A stretch of 38,484 nt of DNA from Nemertoderma westbladi (GCA_032718475.1 JAUCBJ010006429.1:1-38484); one strand, 5' to 3'. Positions 5,095 to 38,224 are shown, counted from the first letter of the stretch. The notes: generated by a model not told the origin, from the sequence alone. Made by a program: numbers and translations.

Positions 5095-6300
5095 AATGGT
5101 CTCCCGCTAGAGGGCCACATGTCTAAACATTAAATGGCCACCCATTTCTTTGCTTTTAATCCGTTTAAGCTGAAACTTGGGAAGTATGTACTAGACCATT
5201 AGCTGTAAATTTCAAAGGAGGCTAATCTGTCTGCAGTTCTCCAGTCTGCCGCTAGAGGGCGAAATGTCCCGAATGTGAAATTATTCTTCCATTTAGTTGT
5301 TTATGATCTGATTACGCTGAAACTTGTCATATATGTACTAGATGACATCCTGAGTCTTTGTGTGGATTGTAATCGGTCCGAAGTTTTCCAGTCTGCCGGT
5401 AGAGGGCCACATGTCTAAACATTAAATGGCCACCCATTTCTTTGCTTTTAATCCGTTTAAGCTGAAACTTGGGAAGTATGTACTAGACCATTAGCTGTAA
5501 ATTTCAAAGGAGGCTAATCTGTCTGCAGTTCTCCAGTCTGCCGCTAGAGGGCGAAATGTCCCGAATGTGAAATTATTCTTCCATTTAGTTGTTTATGATC
5601 TGATTACGCTGAAACTTGTCATATATGTACTAGATGACATCCTGAGTCTTTGTGTGGATTGTAATCGGTCCGAAGTTTTCCAGTCTGCCGGTAGAGGGCC
5701 ACATGTCTAAACATTAAATGGCCACCCATTTCTTTGCTTTTAATCCGTTTAAGCTGAAACTTGGGAAGTATGTACTAGACCATTAGCTGTAAATTTCAAA
5801 GGAGGCTAATCTGTCTGCAGTTCTCCAGTCTGCCGCTAGAGGGCGAAATGTCCCGAATGTGAAATTATTCTTCCATTTAGTTGTTTATGATCTGATTACG
5901 CTGAAACTTGTCATATATGTACTAGAAGACATCCTAAGTCTTTGTGTGGACAGTAATCGGTCCGGAGTTTTCGAGTCTGCCGCTAGAGGGCGAAATGTAG
6001 GAAAGTGATAACCTTCGCGAATTCCTTGATCTTAATCTATTTAAGCTGAATTTTGGAATATACAGTACCGGTATGTACTAGACCACATGCCTCGTCTTTG
6101 TGAGGAAGGTGATCGATCCGTAGTTCTTTAATATACCGCTAGAGGGCTAAATGTATGAAAGTGAAAACCTTCCAACATTTCGTTATTTATGATCCGTCAA
6201 TCGGAAACTTGGTAGATATGTAATAGACCATAGGCTGTGGCTTTGTAGGGAAACTAATCCTTCCTTCTTCAGTTACCCAGTCTCCCGCTAGAGGGTTAAC
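5095..6300 (+). repeat. Tandem array of 145/147-bp units arranged as a 292-bp dimer (x3) plus diverged edge units
   Basis: Anchor CCGSTAGAGGG starts at 5104, 5249, 5396, 5541, 5688, 5833, 5980, 6136 and 6285. Spacing alternates 145/147, then 156 and 149. Confidence 0.95.
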
Positions 6301-8276: not shown

Positions 8277-9143
8277 CTGTAAGGAAATAATTAATGAATA
8301 ATGAAACCTGAGTTGTAATGCATAAACAAATTTACAGACTCATTGCTGGGAATATGCGTACATGAGCCATTGCCATCGGGCAGGAGGGAGCAAAGCCAAA
8401 GTTCGCCCGATTCAAAAAAATTTGCTCCTCCCACTACTCACAGAAAAAAACTCACTTTTATACTGAAAATATAAGTTTTTCATTATCATTATAATTAATT
8501 CACCATATAATATACAGGTATTGAAAGACATATTTAATAAATTTACTCTATATGTCCAGTCTTCCGGATTTTCACATTATCGCATCCATATAAATACATA
8601 TTACACCACCAAACAAAACAAATTGCTTCTTTTTACAACTAGTAAGAAATACACCGCGTTTTGGTGTAAACAACCACAACATGACACACCGAGGCGAGCC
8701 AAATTCACGTTGGCTGACCCATTACGGCCTGTTTTGAAAAAGCTTGAAAATGTTTTATAAACGCACACGCAATCCAGTCAACAACAAGCAGAAACGTGAT
8801 TGGCGCAAGTTTGAGACCCTGCTTCCCACCTTACATGCGTCTCTCCTCGTTTCAATACGCTTTATTTCCAATTTAATGATTTCCCTCAACCGACATTTAC
8901 TGGCTTGGCATCTTGTAATGCCTCCCCTTCAGCTGCGGGGCGAACCTACCTTTCAGCTGACTACTGTTAGCTGATTACTGATTGGATACAACGTTTAGGA
9001 CCAGATGCTTCACTTTTTTTTATAAACCTTGGTACTTGCATACCTACCGGTAATGTTTTTCACTTAACATGCCTAAATAAGAAAATAAGATCTCCTTCCA
9101 ATAGCGAATATATTCAGATTAAATTAATAGAAAGGGAATATAC

Positions 9144-12100
9144 CTTAGTAACATCCATATCAATGTGTGTTATAACGGCACGTCCCCATTGTCGATTGTT
9201 GCAACTCTTCGCCAAACAAGGTAAACCAACTTGTGGATCTTCCAGGCCTGGGAATTGCATTGGGTCATCCTCCATTGTCTTGGCTACTTCGATAGCAGTT
9301 GAGTGCTCAGCGATGAACTGTATATAGACCGCGTCAGGGAGAGGAACTGTTGAGATGTTAATACGAAACAAAGTCCCAATGGGTGGGACCTCAACAGGAC
9401 GAAAGGCCTGCACTAAGGCGGCCCACTCTAAGGTCAGATGCAAATGACCGGGATCAGAAAACCGGCAGAGTCCTTTAGATGGTTGAGCAATAGCTAAACC
9501 GAGCTGCAGTAAGACATCAGACAAACTGATACCAGCTGAGGGAAAATAAATATTGGCAATGTAAGGTTCGACACTGCGGTCCACGATATTGACATCAACA
9601 CAAGGGAACTGTTCAGTTACCAATTGATTCACCTTATTGTACTCATCCGCACTCCATGTGGAAATATTGTAATCCACATCGCATATTTTCATAGCAAAGC
9701 TTTGGACTGGTGGCTCCAACATTGCAAATTTATTTACATTATCGATGGAAACTTCTTCACAATTGCCGAAATCAACGAAGAATACGGTCATGGTTTCTGC
9801 TTTCACAGCAATGACAGTGGAGCGATACCACACATTATCCGTATACTTTGCAGTGCATGGGTCACCCACCGAGAATTCACTTGTGCCGAATACTCCATTT
9901 GTATAGTCTCTTTTTATTTCTTCTTGCAAATTTTTATTAATAGCATATAGCACAGTATCGTGTGCAAGAAGGTGTCCATAGACAAATCCAGTTGATTTAT
10001 CTATGTGAGTGATACCCATCTTCAAAATTCCAGAATCAGGTACAACGCAAGGTAGATATTGGCGCCGGACATGCGGCGATTCATCACTGATACCATAAGA
10101 CGCGCGCAGATTGAGTTGACTGAGGTCTTTCTCAAGGGATGAGCGTGAGGGCATGTTACTTTCTGAATCATTATTCAACATATTTGCCTTTGGCAAGGGA
10201 GAGTTAGCTGATTTAGGAATCACATTTGAAGAAGGGCAGTCAGACAGAAGCTTAGAAGCATTTTCCAAAGAATTAATGTTATAGGTTTTTTCTGATCCGC
10301 GCAAGCGAGCCACGCTCTCGGCTGTGACTAATCGCATTCCCTGATATCTAACTGAGGGTTGCGTATTGGTCTTATTCGGCAGCCCCTTCCCTTGGATTAT
10401 CAATTCCTTGCTGACGTCAATTAATCCTGATCCTTGATTATCACAAACACTTGAACTCGGATTCTCGTAGAGCCATTCCACTGACAATGAGTCCAATCCC
10501 CGATCACTAACCTCATTATTATCTAGTATTTTGATGTACGACCAGTTTTTCGATGCTAAATTGTCTACGAACTCACACACAGAATCCGGCCATCTACCAG
10601 ACCCTCCGGGAGGCACTACTCCTGACAGATGACACCGAACTGCATATGGAGGTATACTCCGGAACTTATCTGGCAACATTCGAATATCAAATTGAGATAT
10701 TGAGTATACATTTCCATAATCGAAGTAGAATACATCCACTAAATCTGTATCATGCACGTTAATCACCTGCGCTCTGCACCATTCATTGTGATGGGGGAAA
10801 TGGGCGCAACAGATGTCACCTCGTTTCCAGGTTGTCTGTAGAATAGGTTTACGAGCATCTTTGAATAGTCGAGTCAAATGTTGAAGCATCTCAAGAAATC
10901 CAGTATCGTAAGTCTTAGCATTCTGGACGTAAAACTCCCAAGGTGATATTACAGAGACAACACTAACAGCCAGGCATGGTAACATCAAGTTTATTGTACG
11001 AGGGCCATTGGAGGTACGTACCACCACAGAAGAGTCCTGGTCAGGGGAGCATTCAGCTGTGCCTAAAACTGTAGCTCCAGGCAATATTTCCCCCACTTTT
11101 GGGGCTGCTAAACCCTCCAATACGAGCACACTATTCAAACATATATACTTATTCATCTTATCCCTGAAAACACAGACAGGAAACACTTCATCCTCTTTAC
11201 AATCAAGAACAGTTTTCATAATGGTGAAGTCGAGTTTCACTGTGTCAGATGTCAAGTCAAGGAAATAATCTACTGCATTCTGACTAAAACTGTTTCCTTC
11301 TAGAGGTTGTACCCCATAAAAGCTGCACCGAATGGCAAATATGTGGTCTTTCAAAAATCGGTCAGGGATCTTTTGTATTTCTGTAACATTGAGAAGCATT
11401 TCATTCCCGTAGTCTACAAATAAAACATTGACATTTCGCTCAGGGAGCAATCGCGTTATTCTAGCACGATACCATTTTCCATCATTAGTGTACAATGCCA
11501 TACATGGCATACCAACACAAGGGCAATGAATCCGCCAAGCTGGATTTCCAACGGCTTTATATTCACTATGGATCTCATTAGCCAACATCGCAATTCGCGG
11601 TAGTTCTGAAACAAGTTGAAAAACCAACAATGACAGGTCATCGTAATGGCATATTCTTCCATGTAGAACTTCTTTCAACTTCAGAGCTGGACGTTTAAAG
11701 AATTTCCTAGCTGACCTGCCAAATGTGGATTCATTTTTTTGTATAGGCCGCCGTACACTATTATTGTCAGGGCGCGCTAATTCCATAAAAATCAAATAGT
11801 CCCGAAGTGAGAATGGTGGCTCAGATATTCCACCAGTATCATCTTGTGGAATAAACAGATTTACATACAAAAGGTCATTAATATCATTGGGTTGCTCATC
11901 CTTGAAATAGGTTGACATATATATCATTTTATTATTACATATTTCAGTTATGGCAGCCTTTGATTCATGACTGTAATACGGACCAGACTGGTTTTCCATA
12001 TCGGGTTTAATGTTAATCAATGAACATCTAAAGCAAAATCGATCATAAACAAAGAACTGATCGGGAAGTTGTCGTAGTCTACGGAGAGGTTCCCAAGCAA

Positions 12101-13265
12101 TAATACCGTAATCAATTAGGTGGACAGGAGCTAAAACATTGTTCGAAATGTCTGGAAATTCACCAATTGCATTCGCTGATGCTTCGCCAAACATACCTCG
12201 AGCCCATTTCTTATCTCCATGTGGGGCCAAACACAATGTACCAAAGCGTTTTGGCACTTTAATCAACATATTTGTATCTGGGGGGCCCCCATCATAGGAT
12301 GGGATGGATATTGCTAAGCCTTTATTGCAGAAATCATTTAAAGCGACCTCCATTTTTCGTAGTTGATTCAAATCTGAGCACTTCTGCACATATATTTCTG
12401 ATGGGTCAATTGCACGCAGAACTACAACCTTTTCCATACCATCAGGTGTTCTGCGTTTTGGCAAATCAAAATTATCATGTTTTCTGGTTTCTATAACATT
12501 TTTATTTAGCTTTTCCCCAATGCTTCTCCCATAATCCTGAGTAGTTGTGTTCAGTAAACTAGTAGATATACCAGATAGATTCATATTTTGTTTCGGCCGA
12601 TCGCTTATCAAAACAGCTTGTCCTTGAGGGGTATTACTGGCAACCTGATGGGAGAATAGATCAACCTTAGAAACTCTGATATCTCTTTCTTTGTCAGGGG
12701 AATTCTGGAGAGAAGATCCACTAACATCATCTGGCATAATCCCAACCCGAGAATCCCTGGGCGTAGACGAGTCATCTCGAAAACTATTAGGCAACTCGAG
12801 GACATCAGAGTGAGGACTGCCCATTGTGGACCCACTCCATTTGCTATCAGAGCTACATGTATCAACAGAAATATCACCATTAGTTATGTGTTTAATGGGT
12901 AGGTTAATACTTGCTGCTACAGCATCATGTGCAGAAAGGCTCTTATACTTGGGAATACTATTAACACCCAATGATATTACATTATTTATCTTATCAATGA
13001 CGGAGCAGTCTTCTTTTATCTCACAAATAGCACTGGTAGCATCATCATTTTTGACGTAGCAAATAATATCATGTACTAACGACAGTTTGTTAGTCGTATT
13101 TAATGTGACCTTGTGGTTATCCTTACGAAAATCATCTTCTATTTCGGTGACGATATTCGAAATTCTCTTTAAACTGCATTGTATGTCTTCATACATTCCG
13201 TTGGTTTCCATTTTAACAATGTAATGAAATGCTTCCAGTGATTCGGTGAATTTTATTTCACTTTC
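9144..13265 (-). CDS. RNF17: RNF17/TDRD4/Qin-like multi-Tudor protein, paralog A, 4122-nt exon
   Basis: Four complete extended Tudor domains (e.g. CMALYTNDGKWYRA...VLFVDYGN, CTAKYTDNVWYRS...VFFVDFGN) plus the start of a fifth. PFSLRDYLIFMELA resembles the RNF17 post-Tudor-1 motif SLRDALVFMELA (from recall). Acceptor ttttctag at 13266-13267, donor AAG|GTATAT at 9143. No RING/B-box exons identified. Confidence 0.85.
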
Positions 13266-13537: not shown

Positions 13538-15592
13538 TAATCTTATTTAACTCTGTAACCCCTAATAATATTATTTAATACTTTAAGTGTACTGTAACCC
13601 CGAATAATCATATTTAACACTGAATAATCTTATATAAAACAGTAACCCATAATAACCTTATTTGACATTAAACCCCTAATAATCTTATATAACACTGTAA
13701 CCCATAATAACCTTATTTGACATTAGATCCCTAATAATCTTATTTAACACGGTAACTCCTAATAATCTTATTTAACACTGTAACCCCTAATAATCTTATA
13801 ACACTGTAACCCCTAATAATCTTATTTAACACTGTAACTCCTAATAATCTTATTTAACACTGTAATCCCTAATAATCTTATAACACTGTAACCCCTAATA
13901 ATCTTATTTAACACTGTAACTCCTAATAATCGTATAACACTGTAAGCCCTAATAGTCTTATTTACCACTGTAATAATCGTATTTAACACTGTAACCCCTA
14001 ATAATCTTATTTAACACTGTAATCCCTAATAATCTTATTTAACACTGTAACCCCTAATAATCTTATTTAATACTGTAATCCCTAATAATCTTATTTAACA
14101 CTGTAACCCCTAATAATCTTATTTAACACTGTAACCCCTAATAATCTTATTTAACACTGTAACCCCTAATAATCTTATTTAACACTGTAACCCCTAATAA
14201 TATTATTTAACACTGTAACCCCTAATAATCTTATAACATTGTAAGCCCTAATAGTCTTATTTACCACTGTAATAATCGTATTTAACACTGTAACCCCTAA
14301 TAATCTTATTTAACACTGTAACCCCTAATAATCTTATTTAACACTGTAAGCCCTAATAGTCTTATTTACCACTGTAATAATCGTATTTAACACTGTAACC
14401 CCTAATAATCTTATAACACTGTAACCCCTAATAATCTTATTTAACACTGTAACCCCTAATAATCTTATTTAACACTGTAACCCTTAATAATCTTATAACA
14501 CTGTAACCCCTAATAATCTTATTTAACACTGTAACTCCTAATAATCGTATAACACTGTAAGCCCTAATAGTCTTATTTACCACTGTAATAATCGTATTTA
14601 ACACTGTAACCCCTAATAATCTTATTTAACACTGTAATCCCTAATAATCTTATTTAACACTGTAACCCCTAATAATCTTATTTAACACTGTAATCCCTAA
14701 TAATCTTATTTAACACTGTAACCCCTAATAATCTTATTTAACACTGTAACCCCTAATAATCTTATTTAACACTGTAACCCCTAATAATCTTATTTAACAC
14801 TGTAACCCCTAATAATATTATTTAACACTGTAACCCCTAATAATCTTATAACATTGTAAGCCCTAATAGTCTTATTTACCACTGTAATAATCGTATTTAA
14901 CACTGTAACCCCTAATAATCTTATTTAACACTGTAACCCCTAATAATCTTATTTAACACTGTAAGCCCTAATAGTCTTATTTACCACTGTAATAATCGTA
15001 TTTAACACTGTAACCCCTAATAATCTTATAACACTGTAACCCCTAATAATCTTATTTAACACTGTAACCCCTAATAATCTTATTTAACACTGTAACCCTT
15101 AATAATCTTATTTAACACTGTAAGCCATAATAACCTTATTTAACACTGAAACCCCTAATAATCTTATTTAACACTGTAACCCCTAATAATCTTATTTAAC
15201 ACTGTAAGCCCTAATAGTCTTATTTACCACTGTAATAATCGTATTTAACACTGTAACCCCTAATAATCTTATAACACTGTAACCCCTAATAATCTTATTT
15301 AACACTGTAACCCTTAATAATCTTATTTAACACTGTAAGCCATAATAACCTTATTTAACACTGAAACCCCTAATAATCTTATTTACCACTGTAACCCTTA
15401 ATAATCTTATTTACCACTGTAACCCTTAATAATCTTATTTAACACTGTAACCCCTAATAATCTTATTTAACACTGTAACCCCTAATAATCTTATTTAACA
15501 CTGTAACCCTTAATAATCTTATTTAACACTGTAAGCCATAATACCCATACTTAACACTGAAACCCCTAATAATCTTATTTACCACTGTAACC
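13538..15592. repeat. 28-bp minisatellite AACACTGTAACCCCTAATAATCTTATTT (~75 units) with a 615-bp internal duplication
   Basis: Directly visible. Variant markers at 13921/14536 and 14231/14846 are both offset by 615 bp. Confidence 0.97.
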
Positions 15593-21467: not shown

Positions 21468-21920
21468 CTGAACCAAAAATAATAAAGTATTAATATAGTG
21501 CGTCACCACATTAATAGAAAAGTGTACTAAATTATGACACTATATTACACGACTTCGTGTATACATACATAGTACATACTGTGGGTAGCAAGCAGTGGCT
21601 GGCATTATTTAAGTAATCTGAGTAATCTGAACATAAGTAATAAACTGTAATATCTCGCAAAATTGCAGAAAATATATTTTTTCTTAAATTATTCGAAATA
21701 ATTTCTTAGAATTCCCTTAAAAAAAGTGCATTATTTACTTTCATAGTTACGGGTCGGCCTGTCATAGTTACGGAGTATGTGGGAACGCTGCAAAGAATGA
21801 ATTTAACATTTACCGTACACGTAGGTATTCAGTTACTCGCATAAATACATATGATTTCCATCAATTAGTTATGATGTATCGATTTATGCTTGAGATACTG
21901 AATTAATTTATTAAACTTAC

Positions 21921-24900
21921 CTTTACTAATTCGTGACTATATCCTGCAAATCCAATTACAACAACCCTGTTCCATTTATCGGCGTCAGTAGCAGACCTAG
22001 CCAAGCACTGCATTCCCACGACAGCCAAGGATACCATAGGGCAGCTCTCCAACTTGGTCTGAACTTCAAGTAGCAATTCATTCAGGTGAGACGTATCTGA
22101 ATCAGGTACTGAACGAAGAAAGACCACACTGGGAGACAACAGTGAAGCAACAACCACACTAAATGAACCCCCTACATCGCCAGGGAATTCCAAAGGAGGA
22201 AACACTGATATCAACAGTGATAAATTGTAAGCATGGGAGCTTATTGAATCAAGATTCGGAGATGCCAATCCCAGATGGAGCATAACATCAGTAAAAGATT
22301 CTCCACTCTCAAGGTTAACATTGGCCGCATACGGCGGTGATGTGCCCTCAACAATGTTTACTGCAAGAAACTGATTAGGTCCTGTGAGAATTCCAACCAG
22401 CTGTATAACATTGCTAGGAGTCATCAAGTGATAGTGAATGTCAATGCCATGCAGACGTAGTGGTATGCATTGAGATGGAACGGCAGTGAGTGCAAAGTTC
22501 CTCATTCTGTTGAAGGAGACCAGCTCGGTGTTGCCGAAGTCTACAAATTGTATATACGCTCCATCGGAACATAAATCCCTGATTATACCCCGACACCATT
22601 TGTCATCTCCAGAGTAACGGGCACTGATACTGTCTCCCACACAAAAATTATCACGACATAAATTATCACAAACAGTAAGTCCCAGCTGATCCTCTAAATG
22701 ATCCATTACCTTGGAGAGGACAAAATTATTATTGCCAACAATATGTCCAAATATAGTCCCATCAAGCTCCAGGTGAGTAGCAATTACAGTGATTTGGATT
22801 CCAGCAGTAACACTCAACATCTCATAATCTCCAAAGTAAGGAGGCTTCACTGTTTTCTCGTCAGCAGCAATATAGCTGCATTCACCATATTGTTTAAGAG
22901 ACAGGCTATGAGATTCGTTATCTTCTGTATATTGTTTGGAAATACAAGGCAACATAGAAAATTGGTTTCTTGGCTCTGGAACGGTTGCATTGCTTTGAGT
23001 CAGAATAACATTATTATCATCATGTATTGTTTGAGATGTTGTATCAGGCAAAATAAATGTTGGTGTGTTATTGATGCTATCAACAACATCACATTCTTCG
23101 ATAACATTACCATTACATTTAACAACATCAACCATGGATTCTGAGACATTAACAACATCATTAATAGTTACATTCACAGTATTGCACTCGTACCCTATAA
23201 TAACCCCCACATTTTCATTCGCAATTGCATCCCTAACAAGTACTGAGTCTCCGAGAGAAATTTCACATTCCTTATAATTGTTTGTATGAGAATTATGATG
23301 ACTTAGTTCAATTTTGTCTTTTAAAGAAACAGCAACATTGTCAATTGCAGATACTTCATCGAGTCGGGAAACTTTCGCATCATCACCATCTGACATGATG
23401 TTCGTCATACTAACAGTGTTGTTATCATCTTTGGTATAATTTTCCGTATCCAAAATATGAACAAACTTATCAGCCTCACTGTATTCACCTGTGCTAACTG
23501 CAGAATCTCTTTCTTTACTGTCAGCAGTAAGGTATGATTCAGAATTGCCAGTGTCAGTTTCACTATTACTAGGCTTTTCATTGTTAGTGCCACCTATAAT
23601 TTGTAATTGGTCTAAACTGACATTAAGATTCGATACAATGTCATGGTTATCAATGTTTAACATACTATCTGCATTATTCGAATTTTCAAGTAATCCTTCA
23701 GTTTCTTCAAAAGAAACAACGTCCCCAATGGCACTATCAATAAGATACTGCATTACATATTGCACAATATATACAACTTCGTTGCAGTTAACCTCATCTG
23801 CATTTACATTTCCAGAGAGATCACTTTCCCTAATAACGTTATTAGAAGTAACATGATAACTATCACTAGGGGTTTCCTCGAAACATTCACCGTCTAGCTT
23901 CTCATAATCACTCTTAAGTAAGTCAGTGCATTGCGAATCCATGCATGTGGACTTGCTCGGAGATATACTAAATAAATTATGCAATATTTTCTTAGTAATT
24001 AGGCAGGATGAGATAGATCGAACTTTATACGGTTTGACTGTAGTCTTGCATGGCAAAGCCAATCCCTCCATTTCCAAAGTTTTACTCAGATTGTATAGTT
24101 TGACATCTGCACCAGGTTTTTGATCATCCGGGCGCTCGTAGTATAAAGATATAGCCATGGAATAATCGCCAATGTGATTATTCATTGTCGATTTATCAAT
24201 ATCTATATAAGACCAGACTTGAGAGACTAAAGTGTCAAGGAATTCGCACGTTGTCTGGGGCCACTCTCCTCCAGCAACTCCTGGAGGTTGTATGTCACTA
24301 AGATGGCAACGCATCACTAATGGGCTCATATGCCTATATCGCTCTGGAAGAATTCTTAAGTCTGAACGAGTTAGAGTGTAAGTGTTTCCCCAATCAGAAT
24401 AAAACACTTCCACTTCATCATTGGTATTATCCATTGTTCCAGATGCACTATCTTCGACCCCACCAAGACTTATAATCTCAGCGCGACACCATTGTTTCTG
24501 CAGAGGGTAGTATGCACAACACAGATCACCCACATGCCATGACATAGCCAAAACAGATGGCATTGCATCCTTATACAATGCTGTAAGATTGATACTCATT
24601 TCTTGGAGACCCCCATCCACTGAAAATGAAGATGCTTTCTGGATGTAAATCTCCCAAGGAGATATAGCATTACTGATACTCACAGCTAAGTGTGGAACAT
24701 CAGGGTTTAAACTTCGTGGACCATTTATTGTCTCAATAGTGTAACAACTAATATCCAAATTACATTCTGCTGTGCCGAGCACTTTAACCCCTGGTAAAAT
24801 TTGATCTTCCTTGGCAGCTACCAATCCTTCGAAATAAAGTAAACTATTTAAGCACATGTATCTTTCATCTTCTATGATAAAGATTAACACATCAGATTTC

Positions 24901-26723
24901 CGATTTACTTCATCGACAGTTTTAATTACCATAAACACCTCAGGACTTTGTACTCTTTCTAAAAAGAACTTTGATGCCTCGATACTAAATTCAGTTTGAC
25001 CTTCCAGTGGTTCCACACCCCAAAGAACACCATGTAAAGCCAATGTGGTCACTTTGAGCAGACTGTCAGGGATCTTCTGAATGTTTCTGTAATCCACATC
25101 AACAATATTGCCATAATCCACAAAGTAGACAGTGACCAATCGCTTACCAGGGAGACCAACAATTCTAGCTCTATACCACTTGCCATCCTCGGGGAAAAGG
25201 GCTATACAAACCATCCCAATTTCGGGCACAAGTATTTGCCATACATTTCGCCACTTCGAATAAATTCCCTGAATTTCTGCATCCATAGCACGTAAATAGG
25301 GTTGATTGGAGCTTTCTTGAACAGCAAAGTCTCGTAAAGACTTATAGTTACTAATACACACATGTAAAGTACTCTCTAAACGTGGGAGATCTGGAACAAA
25401 GAATTTCCGCTTGTTCACATTATATCTTCCACTCTCCAGTTTGTTGCTGATATTGCTGGCAAACCGAGCATGCTCTAGAAATACCATAGCATCACGGATG
25501 GAAAGCACACCACTTGTATCATAGTTGTCCATAGGCAAGGGAAGGGGGTGCAGATCCACCATTGATACACCTGTACGGTCCGTTCTGATCACAGACATAT
25601 TGACCATACGGTCACGTACCATATCTGCCAGATCATTCACAGCTAATTCAGTATATCCTACTGACCCATCCCAAGGCAGGATGTCATATAGGGAGCATTC
25701 ATAAGCAAATCCTTCAGCACGTGAGATTTTGCGAGGGAGTTTGCGCAAACAAGATACATTAACCCACTCGGTGTTACCAAAATCAACAAAATGAATTTCA
25801 GCTTGGCAATTTGTTGAGGGGCCAACGATGACTTCTTTATTCCCAGGTAATTTTATAACCTCGCAACGATACCAAATTGAATCCTTAGAGAACTGAGCCA
25901 AACACAGGTCAGAAACATCAACACATTCAAGTAGTGCAGTGCGACCTGAGGCAGAATTGCAGTACTTCTGAATAGCAAGTTGCAATTGCTGAAATGCAGG
26001 GTCACTCGATTTCTTCCGAATGTAGAAGCAACTAGGACTAGTAATATGAACTACCTGTACTAATTCTGAGGTGAGAAGCTTAGAGCCCTTTATAACAGGG
26101 CGCATTTTTGGAGCCCCAGGGTGATGGATTTCACCACCAGTAACGCGTGCAATGGAAGAATTTGAGCCAATCTCATCAATCTCATCCTCACTGAGACACA
26201 AATCTTTGGCATGTTCATAAATCATACCCCTCCGCCTGGGCAAAGTAGAATTCTTATTGTCATGCGAATTGTATAATTCATCAGAATCTGAATGGTGGAC
26301 GTCACCATCCAAATGATGTTCTAGTGAAGCGATGTCATCATCAATGTTACCAGACTCTGAACTATCATCATCTGTTATTCGCAGCGGTTTGATAAATTTA
26401 AATGGTGAGACTGTAGAACATTTAACTTTAATAATATTACTGAGATGATCCATAACTGATTCATCAATTTCCATGCTATGCATACGTAATGGTCCTAGAA
26501 GTCGCAACTCACAGCATTGTATATCGTCTAGAACATTAAGGTCATCAAGGATATTGACTGCATTAATAATGCAACCGCGAGTTTTTGTGGCTTTACAGCA
26601 TTCATTTACAACGCCACTAGCTGCTTCAAGATTTGCTGAAACGTTATCTTTTAAGGTCAATACATTTCTGATACATTTTTCTGATGAATTCTTCAATTGA
26701 TCCTGAAATATTTCTTCCGATAT
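21921..26723 (-). CDS. RNF17: RNF17/TDRD4/Qin-like multi-Tudor protein, paralog B, 4803-nt exon
   Basis: Four complete extended Tudor domains plus the start of a fifth, and LSIRDAMVFLEHARF. Collinear with paralog A (YMCLNSLLYFEGLVAAKEDQILPGVKVLGTAEC vs YICLNSVLVLEGLAAPKVGEILPGATVLGTAEC). Acceptor attctag at 26724-26725, donor AAG|GTAAGT at 21920. The ORF-track start at 26696 is TTG, so upstream exons are likely. Confidence 0.85.
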
Positions 26724-27967: not shown

Positions 27968-30900
27968 ACCGTTACATATGACACCCTAAAGTACAATCTT
28001 AAATACCGTTACATATGACACCCTAAAGTGCAACATCTTAAATACCGTTACATATGACACCCTAAAGTACAATATCTTAAATACCGTTATATATGACACC
28101 CTAAAGTACAATCTTAAATACCGTTACATATGACACCCTAAAGTACAATCTTAAATACCGTTACATATGACACCCTAAAGTACAATATATTAAATACCGT
28201 TATATATGACACCCTAAAGTACAATATCTTAAATACCGTTACATATGACACCCTAAAGTACAATATCTTAAATACCGTTACATATGACACCCTAAAGTAC
28301 AATATCTTAAATACAGTTACATATGACACCCTAAAGTACAATATCTTAAATACCGTTATATATGACACCCTAAAGTACAATATCTTAAATACCGTTACAT
28401 ATGACACAACGTCATAAAGTCAGGTCAGGTATTCTAGGTCATTGATCAAGAAAACTTGCCACCTCCATGCAGCATAAAGGAGGTGCCACCTGTAGCTGCA
28501 TAGACCCTCTTACTAGGGCAAATCTGGTCCTGTAACTAGGACCCCCTTCGTTCTGGGATAAGGACGCCCTTGGTCCTGGATTAAGGACCCATATACTTGG
28601 CTGCAGGGGTATATGGCCTGGCCAGGCAGATGGTGATCTACCAATGGCTGGTCAGGAGTAGACTGTTCTCATGTCCACTCTGAGTGCACTTCACTGCGAC
28701 CTGCACCTGGCAGCAGGGGTACAGGGCATGACCCAGCAGATGAGCTGCACAGCCAATGGTGGGTCATGTGCGCCAGAGTAGATATGGGCGATGTGCCTCA
28801 TATCTGACTCCACTGCGACACCCACCCTGTGGAATGGCAAACCAGGGTGTGGTATTTGCCCCGAGAGAGACATATGACACCCTAAAGTACAATATCTTAA
28901 ATACCGTTACATATGACACCCTAAAGTACAATATCTTAAATACCTTTACATATGACACCCTAAAGTAAAATCTTAAATACCGTTACATAGGACACCCTAA
29001 AGTACAATATCTTAAATACCGTTATATATGACACCCTAAAGTACAATCTTAAATACCCTTACATATGACACCCTAAAGTACAATATCTTAAATATCGTTA
29101 CATATGACACCCTAAAGTACAATCTTAAATACCGTTACATATGACACCCTAAAGTACAATATCTTAAATACCGTTACATATGGCACCCTAAAGTACAATC
29201 TTAAATACCGTTACATATGACACCCTAAAGTAAAGTACAATATCTTAAATACCGTTACATATGGCACCCTAAAGTACAATCCTGAATACCGTTACATATG
29301 ACACCCTAAAGTACAATATCTTAAATACCGTTACATATGACAACCTAAAGTACGATCTTGAATACCGTTACATATGACACCCTAAAGTGCAATCTTAAAT
29401 ACCGTTACATATGACACCCTAAAGTGCAATCTTAAATACCGTTACATATGACACCCTAAAGTACAATATCTTAAATATCGTTACATATGACACCCTAAAG
29501 TAAAGTACAATATCTTAAATACCGTTACATATGGCACCCTAAAGTACAATCTTGAATACCGTTACATATGACACCCTAAAGTGCAATCTTAAATACCGTC
29601 ACATATGACACCCTAAAGTGCAATCTTAAATACCGTTACATATGACACCCTAAAGTACAATATCTTAAATATCGTTACATATGACACCCTAAAGTACAAT
29701 CTTAAATACCGTTACATATGACACCCTAAAGTACAATATCTTAAATACCGTTACATATGACACCCTAAAGTACAATCTTAAATACCGTTACATATGACAC
29801 CCTAAAGTAAAGTACAATATCTTAAATACCGTTACATATGGCACCCTAAAGTACAATCTTGAATACCGTTACATATGACACCCTAAAGTACAATATCATA
29901 AATACCGTTACATATGACACCCTAAAGTACGATCTTGAATACCGTTACATATGACACCCTAAAGTGCAATCTTAAATACCGTTACATATGACACCCTAAA
30001 GTGCAATCTTAAATACCGTTACATATGACACCCTAAAGTACAATATCTTAAATACCGTTACATATGACACCCTAAAGTAAAGTACAATATCTTAAATACC
30101 GTTACATATGGCACCCTAAAGTACAATCTTGAATACCGTTACATATGACACCCTAAAGTGCAATCTTAAATACCGTTACATATGACACCCTAAAGTGCAA
30201 TCTTAAATACCGTTACATATGACACCCTAAAGTACAATATCTTAAATACCGTTACATATGACACCCTAAAGTACAATATCTTAAATACCGTTACATATGA
30301 CACCCTAAAGTACAATATTTTAAATACCGTTACATATGACACCATAAAGTACAATCTTAAATACCGTTACATATGACACCCTAAAGTACAATATCTTAAA
30401 TACCGTTACATATGACACCCTAAAGTACAATATCTTAAATACCGTTACATATGGCACCCTAAAGTACAATCTTGAATACCGTTACATATGACACCCTAAA
30501 GTGCAATCTTAAATACCGTTACATATGACACCCTAAAGTGCAATCTTAAATACCGTTACATATGACACCCTAAAGTACAATATCTTAAATACCGTTACAT
30601 AGGACACCCTAAAGTACAATATCTTAAATACCGTTACATATGACACCCTAAAGTACAATATCTTAAATACCGTTACATATGACACCCTAAAGTACAATAT
30701 CGTAAATACCGTTACATATGACACCCTAAAGTAAAATCTTAAATACCGTTACATATGACACCCTAAAGTACAATATCTTAAATACCGTTACATATGACAC
30801 TCTAAAGTACAATATCTTAAATACCGTTACATATGACACCCTAAAGTACAATATCTTAAATACCGTTACATAAGACACCCTAAAGTACAATATCTTAAAT

Positions 30901-33900
30901 ACCGTTACATATGACACCCTAAAGTACAATATCTTAAATACCGTTACATAAGACACCCTAAAGTACAATATCTTAAATACCGTTACATATGACACCCTAA
31001 AGTACAATATCGTAAATACCGTTACATATGACACTCTAAAGTACAATATCTTAAATACCGTTACATATGACACCCTAAAGTACAATATCTTAAATACCGT
31101 TACATAAGACACCCTAAAGTACAATATCTTAAATACCGTTACATATGACACCCTAAAGTACAATATCTTAAATACCGTTACATATGGCACCCTAAAGTAC
31201 AATCTTGAATACCGTTACATATGACACCCTAAAGTGCAATCTTAAATACCGTTACATATGACACCCTAAAGTGCAATCTTAAATACCGTTACATATGACA
31301 CCCTAAAGTACAATATCTTAAATACCGTTACATATGACACCCTAAAGTACAATATCGTAAATACCGTTACATATGACACCCTAAAGTAAAATCTTAAATA
31401 CCGTTACATATGACACCCTAAAGTACAATATCTTAAATACCGTTACATATGACACTCTAAAGTACAATATCTTAAATACCGTTACATATGACACCCTAAA
31501 GTACAATATCTTAAATACCGTTACATAAGACACCCTAAAGTACAATATCTTAAATACCGTTACATAAGACACCCTAAAGTACAATATCTTAAATACCGTT
31601 ACATATGACACCCTAAAGTACAATATCTTAAATACCGTTACATATGACACTCTAAAGTACAATATCTTAAATACCGTTACATATGACACCCTAAAGTACA
31701 ATATCTTAAATACCGTTACATAAGACACCCTAAAGTACAATATCTTAAATACCGTTACATATGACACCCTAAAGTACAATATCTTAAATACCGTTACATA
31801 AGACACCCTAAAGTACAATATCTTAAATACCGTTACATAAGACACCCTAAAGTACAATATCTTAAATACCGTTACATAAGACACCCTAAAGTACAATATC
31901 TTAAATACCGTTACATATGACACCCTAAAGTACAATATCTTAAATACCGTTACATAAGACACCCTAAAGTACAATATCTTAAATACCGTTACATAAGACA
32001 CCCTAAAGTACAATATCTTAAATACCGTTACATATGACACCCTAAAGTACAATATCTTAAATACCGTTACATAAGACACCCTAAAGTACAATATCTTAAA
32101 TACCGTTACATAAGACACCCTAAAGTACAATATCTTAAATACCGTTACATAAGACACCCTAAAGTACAATATCTTAATTACCGTTACATATGACACCCTA
32201 AAGTACAATATCTTAAATACCGTTACATAAGACACCCTAAAGTACAATATCTTAAATACCGTTACATATGACACCCTAAAGTACAATATCTTAAATACCG
32301 TTACATATGACACTCTAAAGTACAATATCTTAAATACCGTTACATATGACACCCTAAAGTACAATATCTTAAATACCGTTACATAAGACACCCTAAAGTA
32401 CAATATCTTAAATACCGTTACATATGACACCCTAAAGTACAATATCTTAAATACCGTTACATATGACACCCTAAAGTACAATATCTTAAATACCGTTACA
32501 TAAGACACCCTAAAGTACAATATCTTAAATACCGTTACATATGACACTCTAAAGTACAATATCTTAAATACCGTTACATATGACACCCTAAAGTACAATA
32601 TCTTAAATACCGTTACATAAGACACCCTAAAGTACAATATCTTAAATACCGTTACATATGACACCCTAAAGTACAATATCTTAAATACCGTTACATATGA
32701 CACTCTAAAGTACAATATCTTAAATACCGTTACATATGACACCCTAAAGTACAATATCTTAAATACCGTTACATAAGACACCCTAAAGTACAATATCTTA
32801 AATACCGTTACATATGACACCCTAAAGTACAATATCTTAAATACCGTTACATATGACACCCTAAAGTACAATATCTTAAATACCGTTACATATGACACCC
32901 TAAAGTACAATATCTTAAATACCGTTACATATGACACCCTAAAGTACAATATCTTAAATACCGTTACATATGACACCCTAAAGTACAATATCTTAAATAC
33001 CGTTACATATGACACCCTAAAGTACAATATCTTAAATACCGTTACATATGACACCCTAAAGTACAATATCTTAAATACCGTTACATATGACACCCTAAAG
33101 TACAATATCTTAAATACCGTTACATATGACACCCTAAAGTAAAGTACAATATCTTAAATACCGTTACATATGGCACCCTAAAGTACAATCCTGAATACCG
33201 TTACATATGACACCCTAAAGTACAATATCTTAAATACCGTTACATATGACAACCTAAAGTACGATCTTGAATACCGTTACATATGACACCCTAAAGTGCA
33301 ATCTTAAATACCGTTACATATGACACCCTAAAGTGCAATCTTAAATACCGTTACATATGACACCCTAAAGTACAATATCTTAAATATCGTTACATATGAC
33401 ACCCTAAAGTAAAGTACAATATCTTAAATACCGTTACATATGGCACCCTAAAGTACAATCTTGAATACCGTTACATATGACACCCTAAAGTGCAATCTTA
33501 AATACCGTCACATATGACACCCTAAAGTGCAATCTTAAATACCGTTACATATGACACCCTAAAGTACAATATCTTAAATATCGTTACATATGACACCCTA
33601 AAGTACAATCTTAAATACCGTTACATATGACACCCTAAAGTACAATATCTTAAATACCGTTACATATGACACCCTAAAGTACAATCTTAAATACCGTTAC
33701 ATATGACACCCTAAAGTAAAGTACAATATCTTAAATACCGTTACATATGGCACCCTAAAGTACAATCTTGAATACCGTTACATATGACACCCTAAAGTAC
33801 AATATCATAAATACCGTTACATATGACACCCTAAAGTACGATCTTGAATACCGTTACATATGACACCCTAAAGTGCAATCTTAAATACCGTTACATATGA

Positions 33901-36900
33901 CACCCTAAAGTGCAATCTTAAATACCGTTACATATGACACCCTAAAGTACAATATCTTAAATACCGTTACATATGACACCCTAAAGTAAAGTACAATATC
34001 TTAAATACCGTTACATATGGCACCCTAAAGTACAATCTTGAATACCGTTACATATGACACCCTAAAGTGCAATCTTAAATACCGTTACATATGACACCCT
34101 AAAGTGCAATCTTAAATACCGTTACATATGACACCCTAAAGTACAATATCTTAAATACCGTTACATATGACACCCTAAAGTACAATATCTTAAATACCGT
34201 TACATATGACACCCTAAAGTACAATATTTTAAATACCGTTACATATGACACCATAAAGTACAATCTTAAATACCGTTACATATGACACCCTAAAGTACAA
34301 TATCTTAAATACCGTTACATATGACACCCTAAAGTACAATATCTTAAATACCGTTACATATGGCACCCTAAAGTACAATCTTGAATACCGTTACATATGA
34401 CACCCTAAAGTGCAATCTTAAATACCGTTACATATGACACCCTAAAGTGCAATCTTAAATACCGTTACATATGACACCCTAAAGTACAATATCTTAAATA
34501 CCGTTACATAGGACACCCTAAAGTACAATATCTTAAATACCGTTACATATGACACCCTAAAGTACAATATCTTAAATACCGTTACATATGACACCCTAAA
34601 GTACAATATCGTAAATACCGTTACATATGACACCCTAAAGTAAAATCTTAAATACCGTTACATATGACACCCTAAAGTACAATATCTTAAATACCGTTAC
34701 ATATGACACTCTAAAGTACAATATCTTAAATACCGTTACATATGACACCCTAAAGTACAATATCTTAAATACCGTTACATATGACACCCTAAAGTACAAT
34801 ATCTTAAATACCGTTACATATGACACCCTAAAGTACAATATCTTAAATACCGTTACATAAGACACCCTAAAGTACAATATCTTAAATACCGTTACATATG
34901 ACACCCTAAAGTACAATATCTTAAATACCGTTACATATGACACCCTAAAGTACAATATCTTAAATACCGTTACATATGACACCCTAAAGTACAATATCTT
35001 AAATACCGTTACATAAGACACCCTAAAGTACAATATCTTAAATACCGTTACATATGACACCCTAAAGTACAATATCTTAAATACCGTTACATATGGCACC
35101 CTAAAGTACAATCTTGAATACCGTTACATATGACACCCTAAAGTGCAATCTTAAATACCGTTACATATGACACCCTAAAGTGCAATCTTAAATACCGTTA
35201 CATATGACACCCTAAAGTACAATATCTTAAATACCGTTACATAGGACACCCTAAAGTACAATATCTTAAATACCGTTACATATGACACCCTAAAGTACAA
35301 TATCTTAAATACCGTTACATATGACACCCTAAAGTACAATATCGTAAATACCGTTACATATGACACCCTAAAGTAAAATCTTAAATACCGTTACATATGA
35401 CACCCTAAAGTACAATATCTTAAATACCGTTACATATGACACCCTAAAGTACAATATCTTAAATACCGTTACATATGACACCCTAAAGTACAATATCTTA
35501 AATACCGTTACATAAGACACCCTAAAGTACAATATCTTAAATACCGTTACATATGACACCCTAAAGTACAATATCTTAAATACCGTTACATATGACACCC
35601 TAAAGTACAATATCTTAAATACCGTTACATATGACACCCTAAAGTACAATATCTTAAATACCGTTACATATGACACCCTAAAGTACAATATCTTAAATAC
35701 CGTTACATATGACACCCTAAAGTACAATATCTTAAATACCGTTACATATGACACCCTAAAGTACAATATCTTAAATACCGTTACATATGACACCCTAAAG
35801 TACAATATCTTAAATACCGTTACATAAGACACCCTAAAGTACAATATCTTAAATACCGTTACATAAGACACCCTAAAGTACAATATCTTAAATACCGTTA
35901 CATATGACACCCTAAAGTACAATATCTTAAATACCGTTACATAAGACACCCTAAAGTACAATATCTTAAATACCGTTACATATGACACCCTAAAGTACAA
36001 TATCTTAAATACCGTTACATATGACACCCTAAAGTACAATATCTTAAATACCGTTACATATGACACCCTAAAGTACAATATCTTAAATACCGTTACATAT
36101 GACACCCTAAAGTACAATATCTTAAATACCGTTACATATGACACCCTAAAGTACAATATCTTAAATACCGTTACATATGACACCCTAAAGTACAATATCT
36201 TAAATACCGTTACATAAGACACCCTAAAGTACAATATCTTAAATACCGTTACATATGACACCCTAAAGTACAATATCTTAAATACCGTTACATATGACAC
36301 TCTAAAGTACAATATCTTAAATACCGTTACATATGACACCCTAAAGTACAATATCTTAAATACCGTTACATAAGACACCCTAAAGTACAATATCTTAAAT
36401 ACCGTTACATATGACACCCTAAAGTACAATATCTTAAATACCGTTACATATGACACCCTAAAGTACAATATCTTAAATACCGTTACATAAGACACCCTAA
36501 AGTACAATATCTTAAATACCGTTACATATGACACCCTAAAGTACAATATCTTAAATACCGTTACATATGACACCCTAAAGTACAATATCTTAAATACCGT
36601 TACATATGACACCCTAAAGTACAATATCTTAAATACCGTTACATATGACACCCTAAAGTACAATATCTTAAATACCGTTACATATGACACCCTAAAGTAC
36701 AATATCTTAAATACCGTTACATATGACACCCTAAAGTACAATATCTTAAATACCGTTACATAAGACACCCTAAAGTACAATATCTTAAATACCGTTACAT
36801 ATGACACCCTAAAGTACAATATCTTAAATACCGTTACATATGACACCCTAAAGTACAATATCTTAAATACCGTTACATATGACACCCTAAAGTACAATAT

Positions 36901-38224
36901 CTTAAATACCGTTACATATGACACCCTAAAGTACAATATCTTAAATACCGTTACATATGACACCCTAAAGTACAATATCTTAAATACCGTTACATATGAC
37001 ACCCTAAAGTACAATATCTTAAATACCGTTACATATGACACCCTAAAGTACAATATCTTAAATACCGTTACATATGACACCCTAAAGTACAATATCTTAA
37101 ATACCGTTACATATGACACCCTAAAGTACAATATCTTAAATACCGTTACATATGACACCCTAAAGTACAATATCTTAAATACCGTTACATATGACACCCT
37201 AAAGTACAATATCTTAAATACCGTTACATATGACACCCTAAAGTACAATATCTTAAATACCGTTACATAAGACACCCTAAAGTACAATATCTTAAATACC
37301 GTTACATATGACACCCTAAAGTACAATATCTTAAATACCGTTACATATGACACCCTAAAGTACAATATCTTAAATACCGTTACATAAGACACCCTAAAGT
37401 ACAATATCTTAAATACCGTTACATATGACACCCTAAAGTACAATATCTTAAATACCGTTACATATGACACCCTAAAGTACAATATCTTAAATACCGTTAC
37501 ATATGACACCCTAAAGTACAATATCTTAAATACCGTTACATATGACACCCTAAAGTACAATATCTTAAATACCGTTACATATGACACCCTAAAGTACAAT
37601 ATCTTAAATACCGTTACATATGACACCCTAAAGTACAATATCTTAAATACCGTTACATAAGACACCCTAAAGTACAATATCTTAAATACCGTTACATATG
37701 ACACCCTAAAGTACAATATCTTAAATACCGTTACATATGACACCCTAAAGTACAATATCTTAAATACCGTTACATATGACACCCTAAAGTACAATATCTT
37801 AAATACCGTTACATATGACACCCTAAAGTACAATATCTTAAATACCGTTACATATGACACCCTAAAGTACAATATCTTAAATACCGTTACATATGACACC
37901 CTAAAGTACAATATCTTAAATACCGTTACATATGACACCCTAAAGTACAATATCTTAAATACCGTTACATAAGACACCCTAAAGTACAATATCTTAAATA
38001 CCGTTACATATGACACCCTAAAGTACAATATCTTAAATACCGTTACATATGACACCCTAAAGTACAATATCTTAAATACCGTTACATATGACACCCTAAA
38101 GTAAAATCTTAAATACCGTTACATATGACACCCTAAAGTACAATATCTTAAATACCGTTACATATGACACCCTAAAGTACAATATCTTAAATACCGTTAC
38201 ATATGACACCCTAAAGTACAATAT
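27968..38224. repeat. 39-bp satellite GACACCCTAAAGTACAATATCTTAAATACCGTTACATAT (~250 units, with 37- and 44-bp variants)
   Basis: Directly visible over ~10.2 kb. A variant-rich block at ~29221 recurs at ~33130 (offset 3909). Confidence 0.99.
28408..28869 (+). mobile_element. 462-bp non-coding retroposed (SINE-like, possibly RTE-mobilised) structured element inserted in the satellite
   Basis: Perfect 11-bp TSD ACATATGACAC (28397-28407 and 28870-28880) and a short (GA)n 3' end. GC-rich, no credible ORF, dense hairpins. The 3' motif GGAATGGCAAACCA...GTATTTGCC resembles the RTE/Bov-A motif. Strand inferred from G-U pair bias. Confidence 0.75.

What the first reader, a model, noticed from the sequence alone, without database searches (positions are those of the whole stretch)
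28589..28819. Tandemly duplicated three-hairpin module with conserved loops and compensated stems
Module 1 (~28589-28700) and module 2 (~28700-28819) share TGGCWGCAGGGGTA, GCAGATG, CCAATGG, GAGTAGA and CACTGCGAC in the same order. Their stems differ in sequence yet still pair: CCATATAC/GTATATGG vs CCTGCACC/GGTACAGG; CCTGGCCAG/CTGGTCAGG vs GCATGACCCA/TGGGTCATGT; GAGTAGAC/GTCCACTC vs GAGTAGATATG-GGC/GCCTCATATCTGACTC. Conserved loops with covarying stems inside one molecule are the signature of selection on RNA structure, such as a repeated protein-binding or catalytic domain.
Basis: seen in the sequence. Interest (0 to 1): 0.75.

Follow-up and report, generated by a model that had tools for sequence, protein, structure and literature searches.

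The report
Duplicated RNA fold in RTE-like retroposon
Two diverged copies of a 115-base unit inside an abundant dispersed repeat of an animal genome keep the same three predicted RNA helices through matched base changes, so the RNA shape is likely under selection, and the pair likely serves as a twin grip for the protein of an RTE-type retrotransposon that would move the repeat.

Summary
The duplication is real (alignment score 23 against -19 +/- 5 in 2000 shuffles). Of 40 equivalent pairs, 30 are identical, 6 changed on both sides, 2 are paired indels, 1 is a wobble change and 1 is broken. The modules lie in a 449-base non-coding insert in a satellite: a cut-short copy of an abundant, young, dispersed family with a sharp left end. 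The + strand folds better. Right behind module 2 sits the bulged TGG-CAAA-CCA hairpin of RTE-clade LINE 5' regions. The two longest invariant motifs can pair as a pseudoknot, and a G-C/A-U double polymorphism in the family fits it (chance 3-8%). No hammerhead, twister, HDV-like or Pol III core was found, Rfam gives nothing, and copies do not begin at the modules, which argues against self-cleavage. Best reading: a non-autonomous RTE-derived retroposon with a doubled RNA domain, likely bound by its partner's protein (untested). The family's far end and its partner were not seen. The scan gave a similar reading to a duplicated pseudoknot in another genome's LINE (e1-9883938); no sequence look-alike was found.

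The parts
27968..28407 (.). 39-bp satellite, left block (host sequence of this insertion)
28419..28867 (+). Copy of an abundant dispersed non-coding family; sharp left end, cut short on the right (the family goes on past 28867)
   Evidence: loose ends with unlike flanks at 28418-28420; shared continuation behind 28867 in 42, 23, 27 and 1 contigs of four runs
28423..28460 (+). Predicted terminal hairpin that includes the short (TCAGG) repeat at the left end; needs G.U pairs, so it forms well on + only
   Evidence: 15 pairs, mean probability 0.92 on +
28461..28501 (+). Domain with helix ATGCAGC/GCTGCAT; either a nested hairpin or an H-type pseudoknot with CACCTCC/GGAGGTG
   Evidence: sequence; nested form; knot not tested
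28507..28523 (+). 5' strand of a predicted long-range helix with 28854-28867 that encloses both modules
   Evidence: 8 + 5 pairs, probability 0.92 and 0.88
28526..28589 (+). Three 23-base tandem hairpins; the middle one has a swapped outer pair
28589..28700 (+). Module 1: helix 1 (28589-96/28609-16), helix 2 (28617-34/28640-56), helix 3 (28657-65/28676-90), tail
28599..28606 (+). Module 1 loop strand of the proposed pseudoknot; partner 28694-28700
   Evidence: 6 Watson-Crick pairs, one G.A, bulged W; inferred
28700..28819 (+). Module 2: helix 1 (28700-07/28718-25), helix 2 (28726-46/28751-69), linker, helix 3 (28776-88/28796-28810), tail
28709..28716 (+). Module 2 loop strand of the proposed pseudoknot; partner 28813-28819; pair 28716-28813 is G-C or A-T in the family
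   Evidence: inferred
28820..28853 (+). Hairpin with outer stem, 7-base 5' bulge and TGG-CAAA-CCA cap, as in RTE-clade 5' regions
   Evidence: PMC5786205 supplement, compared by eye
28870..38224 (.). 39-bp satellite, right block (about 240 units)

Best explanation
The two modules are an old internal duplication of one predicted RNA domain (three helices, likely closed by a loop-to-tail pseudoknot) in a non-coding dispersed repeat that likely derives from the front end of an RTE-clade LINE, and they likely act as twin binding sites for the partner LINE's protein. Shown: the duplication, the matched changes in the stems, the dispersed family with one sharp end, and the RTE-type motifs right behind module 2. 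Inferred: the + strand is the RNA; it would be transcribed by read-through from host promoters (no Pol III boxes), fold into a compact multi-helix body closed by the 28507-23/28854-67 helix, capture the endonuclease-reverse transcriptase of an autonomous RTE through the doubled domain, and be copied into new sites by target-primed reverse transcription from a 3' tail that lies beyond the part held in the window. Doubling would raise avidity and let this non-coding RNA compete with the LINE's own RNA, as dimeric Alu and Bov-A2 are thought to profit from two arms. Rough odds by step: structure under selection 0.9, RTE origin and + strand 0.7, pseudoknot 0.55, protein grip as the main job 0.45.
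For: Covariation between modules: 30 same, 6 double, 2 paired indels, 1 wobble change, 1 broken of 40 pairs. With six majority alleles applied, module 1 folds at z -4.4 on + and -2.5 on -, both modules -3.8 and -2.6, and the whole copy has 152 against 118 pairs above probability 0.5. The three variants at paired sites (28621, 28731, 28782) toggle A-U and G.U on + and would be mismatches on -. Rare variants from single contigs break 9 of 18. Family: 4686, 1573, 2014, 74 and 1 contigs laid in runs X1, X3, X2, X4, X6; flanks before 28418-28420 agree only 0.38-0.51. RTE link: a pattern from 28809-28855 fetched 59 loci; 10 are one family lying before an endonuclease + reverse transcriptase frame (L012: Exo_endo_phos 2e-18, RVT_1 1e-35). 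Outside the pattern these 10 all have TTGCC just downstream (0 of the other 49) and GA before ATGGC (2 of 49), and the 9 with enough flank give collinear-motif scores 13-17 against 5-13 in 48 others. The outer stem + 7-base bulge + TGG-CAAA-CCA layout recurs with three different outer stems in the window, in these loci and in MAR1 and SINE2-2_ACar (by eye). Kojima 2018 (PMC5786205) reports that RTE 5'-UTR pieces, often internal ones, are kept in non-autonomous elements and that some RTEs carry a conserved 5'-UTR domain twice. A review (PMC13708176, passages) says engineered RTE-1_MD templates carry both UTRs.
Against: No binding or expression datum exists; the protein-grip step rests on analogy. 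The RTE likeness is modest by plain statistics: local alignment 32 against 24.9 +/- 3.4, 14 of 300 shuffles; upstream flank 105-339 of 1000; chain scores 10-67 of 500 shuffles for module 2 and 156-241 of 500 for module 1; the module model finds nothing in the 10 loci at E <= 10. The 10 loci are one family, and the pattern was drawn up from a recalled likeness, so they are not independent tests. The modules themselves are therefore not shown to be RTE-derived. The far end, a 3' tail, target-site duplications and an autonomous partner were not seen. The sharp end carries a short (TCAGG) repeat of slightly varying length and this copy is cut on the other side with an 11-base satellite word on both flanks, which also fits a minus-strand element with a microsatellite tail. 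The pseudoknot rests on one double change (3-8% by chance); its duplex energy does not stand out from shuffled tails (19-50% as good). One search hid 21 variant rows, six of them at 1% or more in X1.
Confidence: 0.45

Rival explanations
1. The modules are cap-independent ribosome-recruiting (IRES-like) domains inherited from an RTE leader; the non-coding RNA keeps them to sit at ribosomes and catch newly made partner protein, as Alu does through SRP9/14.
For: Pseudoknotted multi-helix layout upstream of where the RTE frame starts (in L012 the matching motif lies in the first part of the open frame). Ribozyme-bearing RTE leaders support translation of a downstream reporter (PMC8501958, passages). 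The Alu-domain precedent in an RTE-moved SINE (PMC7245038, passages).
Against: No Rfam IRES match. No long frame in the copy. Cannot be told from direct protein binding with sequence alone.
Confidence: 0.2
2. The element runs on the minus strand or is not RTE-derived: the (CTGAC) repeat at 28419 is its 3' tail, the window copy is an ordinary 5'-truncated insertion with an 11-base target duplication, and the + strand structure serves another purpose or came with a captured piece.
For: Sharp end with a short repeat of varying length (loose-end consensus ends in TCAG in three runs); ACATATGACAC on both sides of this copy; truncation on the opposite side.
Against: Folding and the three A-U/G.U toggles favour +; the repeat is part of a + strand hairpin; 11 non-satellite bases lie between the repeat and the satellite; in a 39-bp satellite an apparent duplication of 5-20 bases arises in about four of ten random junctions; RTE motifs read on +; the minus strand did not align to the L028 3' end (score 17, 299 of 300 shuffles as good, though that end is damaged).
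Confidence: 0.15
3. Each module is an exonuclease-blocking knot (works like the tandem xrRNAs of flaviviruses) that protects an uncapped element RNA from 5'-3' decay.
For: Tandem duplication of a compact pseudoknotted domain near the 5' end; a ribozyme fold gives cap-like protection in R2 templates (PMC13708176, passages).
Against: No Rfam match; no closing helix of the xrRNA three-way junction is seen; copies keep the 170 bases upstream of module 1 at about the same depth.
Confidence: 0.08
4. Each module is a self-cleaving ribozyme of an undescribed class.
For: RTE leaders carry HDV-like or twister ribozymes in other animals (PMC8501958, PMC6765202, PMC7761336, passages); invariant unpaired and non-canonical residues; a likely pseudoknot.
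Against: No hammerhead, twister, HDV L3, hairpin loop B or twister-sister core on +; Rfam blank to E 10; two cuts would split the element, yet copies start at 28418-28420 and no place with many ends is listed at the modules.
Confidence: 0.08
5. The likeness of the stems is chance or neutral drift after a duplication.
For: Only two modules; the structural alignment was made by hand.
Against: 6 double changes and 2 paired indels against 1 break; z -4.4 and -3.1 with majority alleles; common variants keep pairs while rare ones break 9 of 18.
Confidence: 0.04

Closest known systems
Bipartite non-autonomous RTE elements and RTE-derived SINEs (Bov-A/Bov-A2, MAR1, SINE2-2_ACar, hagfish SINE1-1_EBu; PMC5786205, PMC7245038)
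   Same: Non-coding, dispersed, abundant; carries the GGAATGGCAAACCA...GTAT..TTGCC stretch with the bulged hairpin of RTE 5' regions; doubled 5'-UTR pieces are known (AviRTE has a conserved domain twice; Bov-A2 is a dimer; SINE1-1_EBu has two RTE 5' pieces).
   Different: No tRNA, 5S or 7SL head found; the doubled unit is a diverged, covarying three-helix domain with a likely pseudoknot whose motifs CCAATGG, GAGTAGA, GCAGGGG and CTGCGAC do not occur in that paper's supplement text (its Figure S4 is a picture and could not be read); 3' part not seen.
BovB-type RTE LINE 5' region (loci L012, L021, L023, L028, L031-33, L041, L044, L068; the name BovB is recalled and matched by eye to PMC5786205 supplement rows)
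   Same: Collinear motifs GGGTCATG, AGAG, TCTGAC, TCCACTG, GGAATGGCAAACCA, GTAT, TTGCC; same hairpin layout with a different outer stem.
   Different: No duplicated module; the module model does not hit it; autonomous, with an endonuclease-reverse transcriptase frame.
Ribozymes at RTE 5' ends: twister T-variants of Perere-3 (PMC8501958), HDV-like ribozymes (as reviewed in PMC6765202), truncated twisters mentioned as unpublished in PMC7761336
   Same: Structured, pseudoknotted RNA in an RTE leader.
   Different: Those sit at the very 5' end and define it by cleavage; these modules are internal, doubled and lack the catalytic cores.
Dimeric Alu (two 7SL Alu domains; PMC7245038, passages)
   Same: Works-like comparison only: two diverged arms that keep one fold in a very abundant non-autonomous retroposon.
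   Different: No 7SL homology (Rfam blank), no Pol III boxes, different fold and likely a different partner clade.

Membership tests
RTE-derived non-autonomous element (bipartite) | Piece of an RTE 5' region | tested here: met
   For 28809-28867: and supplement rows. Plain alignment alone is weak (14 of 300). For the modules themselves only module 2 shows modest collinear motifs.
RTE-derived non-autonomous element (bipartite) | Dispersed, many copies, non-coding | tested here: met
   Thousands of contigs, dozens of unlike flanks at one sharp end; no long frame in the copy.
RTE-derived non-autonomous element (bipartite) | RTE 3' end with hairpin and microsatellite tail | not testable with these tools
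   The window copy stops at 28867; only 30 further letters were shown; no genome is held.
RTE-derived non-autonomous element (bipartite) | Target-site duplications of variable length | tested here: inconclusive
   An 11-base satellite word flanks this copy, but the copy is truncated and lies in a 39-bp satellite.
RTE-derived non-autonomous element (bipartite) | Autonomous RTE partner in the same genome sharing the ends | not testable with these tools
   No genome held; none in the window.
tRNA/5S/7SL-headed SINE | Small-RNA head with Pol III A and B boxes | tested here: not met
   No tRNA, no Rfam match, no B box on either strand of the copy; a head beyond 28867 cannot be excluded.
Hammerhead retrozyme | CUGANGA and GAAA core | tested here: not met
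   No CTGANGA on either strand; Rfam blank.
Twister ribozyme (any circular permutation, T-variant) | UAA-P2-GC block, L4 loop UCCCAAGC-like, GAGGG-like block with the catalytic G | tested here: not met
   No L4 motif; the one UAA..GC hit lies outside the modules (consensus recalled); Rfam blank to E 10.
HDV-like ribozyme | Nested double pseudoknot with L3 YYCNCGY, GG and catalytic C in J4/2 | tested here: not met
   No L3 motif on either strand (consensus recalled); GCAAA occurs twice on + but no fitting P1-P3 order was found by eye; Rfam blank.
Twister-sister / TS-like ribozyme | Internal loop GCAA opposite GCUCAU | tested here: not met
   GCTCAT absent on + (motif recalled); Rfam blank.
Flaviviral-type xrRNA or IRES | Family fold and activity | tested here: inconclusive
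   No Rfam match; activity cannot be tested here.

The most novel reading that the evidence does not exclude
The module is an undescribed class of RNA domain, an H-type pseudoknot with two hairpins inserted in its third loop, that is the functional core RTE-clade retrotransposons use to engage their protein or the ribosome; this family has doubled it and preserved it long enough to expose the fold by covariation, and divergent forms of the same core underlie the conserved RTE 5'-UTR pieces found in many SINE bodies.
Probability: 0.2. Interest if true: 0.75.

Novelty: new variant of a known kind. Interest (0 to 1): 0.45.

Why it matters
Why non-autonomous RTE elements and many SINEs keep internal pieces of the LINE's 5' UTR is an open question (PMC5786205 speculates on binding of a transcriptional regulator). 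Here a natural duplication shows that the constraint acts on RNA shape, and gives a small, defined domain with ready-made compensatory pairs that can be tested for protein binding, ribosome binding, nuclease blocking or cleavage. RTE systems are also being developed for gene insertion, where the UTR requirements of the template RNA matter (PMC13708176). If the job is ordinary protein recognition, the finding is a tidy new variant, not a new kind of system.

Tried and rejected
Own-genome search: no genome held. Rfam: 0 matches in the window at gathering score and 0 at E <= 10 in 28300-28950; three of the ten BovB-like loci gave only 10 sub-threshold hairpin matches in one of them. Module patterns: 11 stretches in viral contigs, all chance by inspection; 0 in metagenome contigs. 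Terminal pattern: 0 in viral contigs; 49 of the 59 loci look like chance. No RTE relative in viral contigs. Run search: no RNA holder listed; X6 is only guessed to be RNA, so transcription is not shown. Runs X7 and X8 of two other organisms had 0 contigs laid, which is no proof of absence. The family's continuation is not elsewhere in the window. A model of the two modules found no third module in the window (built on the MAFFT alignment, whose helix 1 is out of register). My first idea of a clean 11-base target duplication was weakened (satellite phase, truncated copy). Twister permutations and an HDV-like fold were tried by eye and by motif and dropped. Pairing of the tail with CAATGG was dropped because the C allele and module 1 mismatch it. 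A likeness of the minus strand to RTE 3' ends seen by eye was not borne out (against a damaged end only). The Tudor frames did not place the animal: best identities 20-30%. Literature searches that found no description of this fold; Repbase and Dfam were not searchable.

Full report
Setting. The window is animal DNA: two long frames carry Tudor domains with best matches of only 20-30% identity to animal TDRD6/TDRD15-like proteins, and no prokaryote genome is held for it. The finding lies in a G+C-rich insert between two blocks of a 39-bp satellite, 27968-28407 and 28870-38224.

The observation. The five motifs are present in both modules in the order given. The modules align with a global score of 23 against -18.8 +/- 5.0, and 0 of 2000 dinucleotide shuffles reach it. 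Each folds into three helices; z is -1.97 for module 1 and -3.10 for module 2 in the window copy. A hand alignment of 40 equivalent pairs, made with four family-majority alleles and fitted to the structure, gives 30 identical, 6 changed on both sides, 2 paired indels, 1 wobble change and 1 broken; the window copy itself gives 29, 5, 2, 2 and 2.

The family. Six of nine listed runs hold the stretch, five of one organism and one of another, from four studies. I laid seven of the nine. Contigs laid: X1 4686, X3 1573, X6 1, X7 0; X1 4680, X4 74, X2 2014, X8 0. X1 and X2 are one sample, and the best holder may be the window's source. Most contigs are 95% alike or better, so the family is young. Summed depth is not a copy number, but it is of the order of 10^5-10^6 against 10-100 for single contigs. 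The left end is sharp: 46+13, 45+11+8+5 and 50+14+7 contigs leave the stretch at 28415-28420 with flanks that agree only 0.38-0.51. On the right the window copy stops at 28867 while 42, 23, 27 and 1 contigs go on with a shared sequence; only 30 letters of it were shown. So the modules are internal, starting 170 bases from the sharp end.

Selection inside the family. Nine substitution alleles in the modules reach 1% in X1 or X2 among the rows shown, plus a one-base insertion in an apical loop. Three toggle A-U and G.U in helices (28621, 28731, 28782), four fall on positions unpaired in my model (28685 twice, 28770, 28773), and two form a couple (below). The chance that five transitions and one transversion site break nothing is about 0.04, while 9 of 18 rare variants from single contigs break a pair. 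One search hid 21 rows, six of them at 1% or more in X1, so this count is incomplete. With six majority alleles, module 1 folds at -50.1 kcal/mol (z -4.4, 0 of 150) on + and z -2.5 on -; module 2 z -3.1 and -2.7; the whole copy has 152 pairs above probability 0.5 on + and 118 on -. The + strand is therefore the structured one.

A likely pseudoknot. The two longest invariant motifs are complementary: loop 1 GGC-W-GCAR against tail YTGC-GAC gives six Watson-Crick pairs, one G.A and a bulge at W, the one position that differs between modules. In module 2 the R-Y pair is polymorphic: 28716A and 28813T are at 0.68/0.71 in X1, 0.71/0.59 in X3, 0.54/0.44 in X2 and 0/0 in X4, whereas 28621A is at 0.72, 0.63, 0.36 and 0.80. 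The window copy has G and C, the single X6 contig A and T. Against this: it is one event; 28685A also vanishes in X4, so shared subfamily history alone can give the parallel frequencies; X4 has few contigs; a random G-C site pair lies in a 4-pair helix 8% of the time and in so good a duplex 3% of the time; and the duplex energy is not better than shuffled tails. I put the knot at about 0.55. Its geometry (two-base first loop over a seven-pair helix, two hairpins in the third loop) is plausible by general knowledge of H-type knots.

Origin. From memory the 3' part recalled RTE leaders. A pattern from 28809-28855 fetched 36 metagenome and 23 genome loci; ten are one family that lies before an endonuclease-reverse transcriptase frame. 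Outside the pattern, all ten have TTGCC just downstream (0 of 49 others) and GA before ATGGC (2 of 49); nine with enough flank score 13-17 in collinear motifs against 5-13 for 48 others, and 10-67 of 500 shuffles reach four of these scores. Plain local alignment is weaker: 14 of 300 for the whole leader, 105-339 of 1000 for the upstream flank. Module 1 shows no significant likeness, and a model of the modules hits none of the ten loci. The strongest point is structural and seen by eye: an outer stem, a 7-base 5' bulge and a TGG-CAAA-CCA cap recur with outer stems CACCC/GGGTG here, CTGGAG/CTTCAG in the fetched loci, CTGGAG/CTCCAG in MAR1 and CAGAGG/CCTCTG in SINE2-2_ACar, whose cap has one mismatch. 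I judge the terminal part RTE-derived and the modules probably so.

Orientation caveat. The sharp end is a short (TCAGG) repeat that varies a little between copies, the window copy is cut on the other side, and an 11-base satellite word stands on both flanks. That is what a 5'-truncated minus-strand insertion would look like. Folding asymmetry, the G.U toggles, the sense of the RTE motifs, 11 foreign bases between repeat and satellite, and the ease of false duplications in a 39-bp satellite speak against it; I leave it 0.15.

Mechanism. No hammerhead, twister, HDV-like, hairpin or twister-sister core and no Pol III B box was found in the copy (consensus motifs recalled), no tRNA and no Rfam family. 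Elements whose leader ribozyme cuts begin at the cut (PMC8501958); these copies begin far upstream of both modules. I favour the first (0.45) because RTE 5'-UTR pieces, including internal ones, are kept again and again in non-autonomous elements (PMC5786205, PMC7245038) and engineered RTE templates keep both UTRs (PMC13708176).

Literature seen. PMC5786205: parts 1-4 of 5 of the main text, supplement parts 5, 6 and 15 of 15 and two motif searches; its Figure S4 is a picture and may show related domains. Passages only: PMC8501958, PMC11620745, PMC6765202, PMC7761336, PMC10085705, PMC8216279, PMC13708176, bioRxiv 10.1101/2022.11.04.512097 (73), PMC7245038. PMC13295347 gave no hit for four terms (79). 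Ruminski 2011 is known to me only through these papers. Eight searches showed no description of this fold; Repbase and Dfam could not be searched, so the family may already have a consensus there.

Verdict. A real, well-supported case of structure-preserving duplication in a young, abundant, probably RTE-derived non-autonomous retroposon, with an undescribed fold and an untested job. New variant of a known kind; interest 0.45.

Noticed in passing
window 28526-28589: Three 23-base tandem hairpins just upstream of module 1; the middle one has a swapped outer pair and a G.U, a second small covarying array. Their GGAT(T)A-like loops recall the L2 3' stem-loop (recalled, not tested).
   Followed up: partly
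window 28461-28501: Possible second H-type pseudoknot with the same GCAG/CTGC core as the modules; the module model does not match it.
   Followed up: partly
window 28856-28867 and beyond: With the family continuation shown, a further hairpin (CCGAG/CTCGG) and an A-run plus C-run like that of RTE leaders can be read past the end of this copy.
   Followed up: no
window 9114-13211 and 21903-26696 (- strand): Two long intronless frames with several Tudor domains each, only 20-30% identical to known TDRD6/TDRD15-like proteins (the first was searched); a tandem pair of germline piRNA-pathway-like genes in a poorly sampled animal.
   Followed up: partly
window 301-2730 (- strand): 809-residue frame with no Pfam match.
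   Followed up: no
window 5099-5998, 13623-15592, 28870-38224: A 292-bp unit in three near-identical copies with an older 146-bp sub-period, a 28-bp satellite and a 9.4-kb 39-bp satellite; the long minus-strand frames at 30726-38094 are products of the satellite.
   Followed up: no
L068 (846-base contig of a bacterial genome record, NZ_JBHUIY010000105.1): Carries a BovB-like LINE 5' region nearly identical to those in metagenome contigs; likely animal DNA contaminating the assembly.
   Followed up: partly
L012 1239-3875 (- strand): The conserved RTE leader motif lies inside the same open frame as the endonuclease-reverse transcriptase, so in BovB-like elements this RNA structure may overlap an N-terminal extension.
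   Followed up: no
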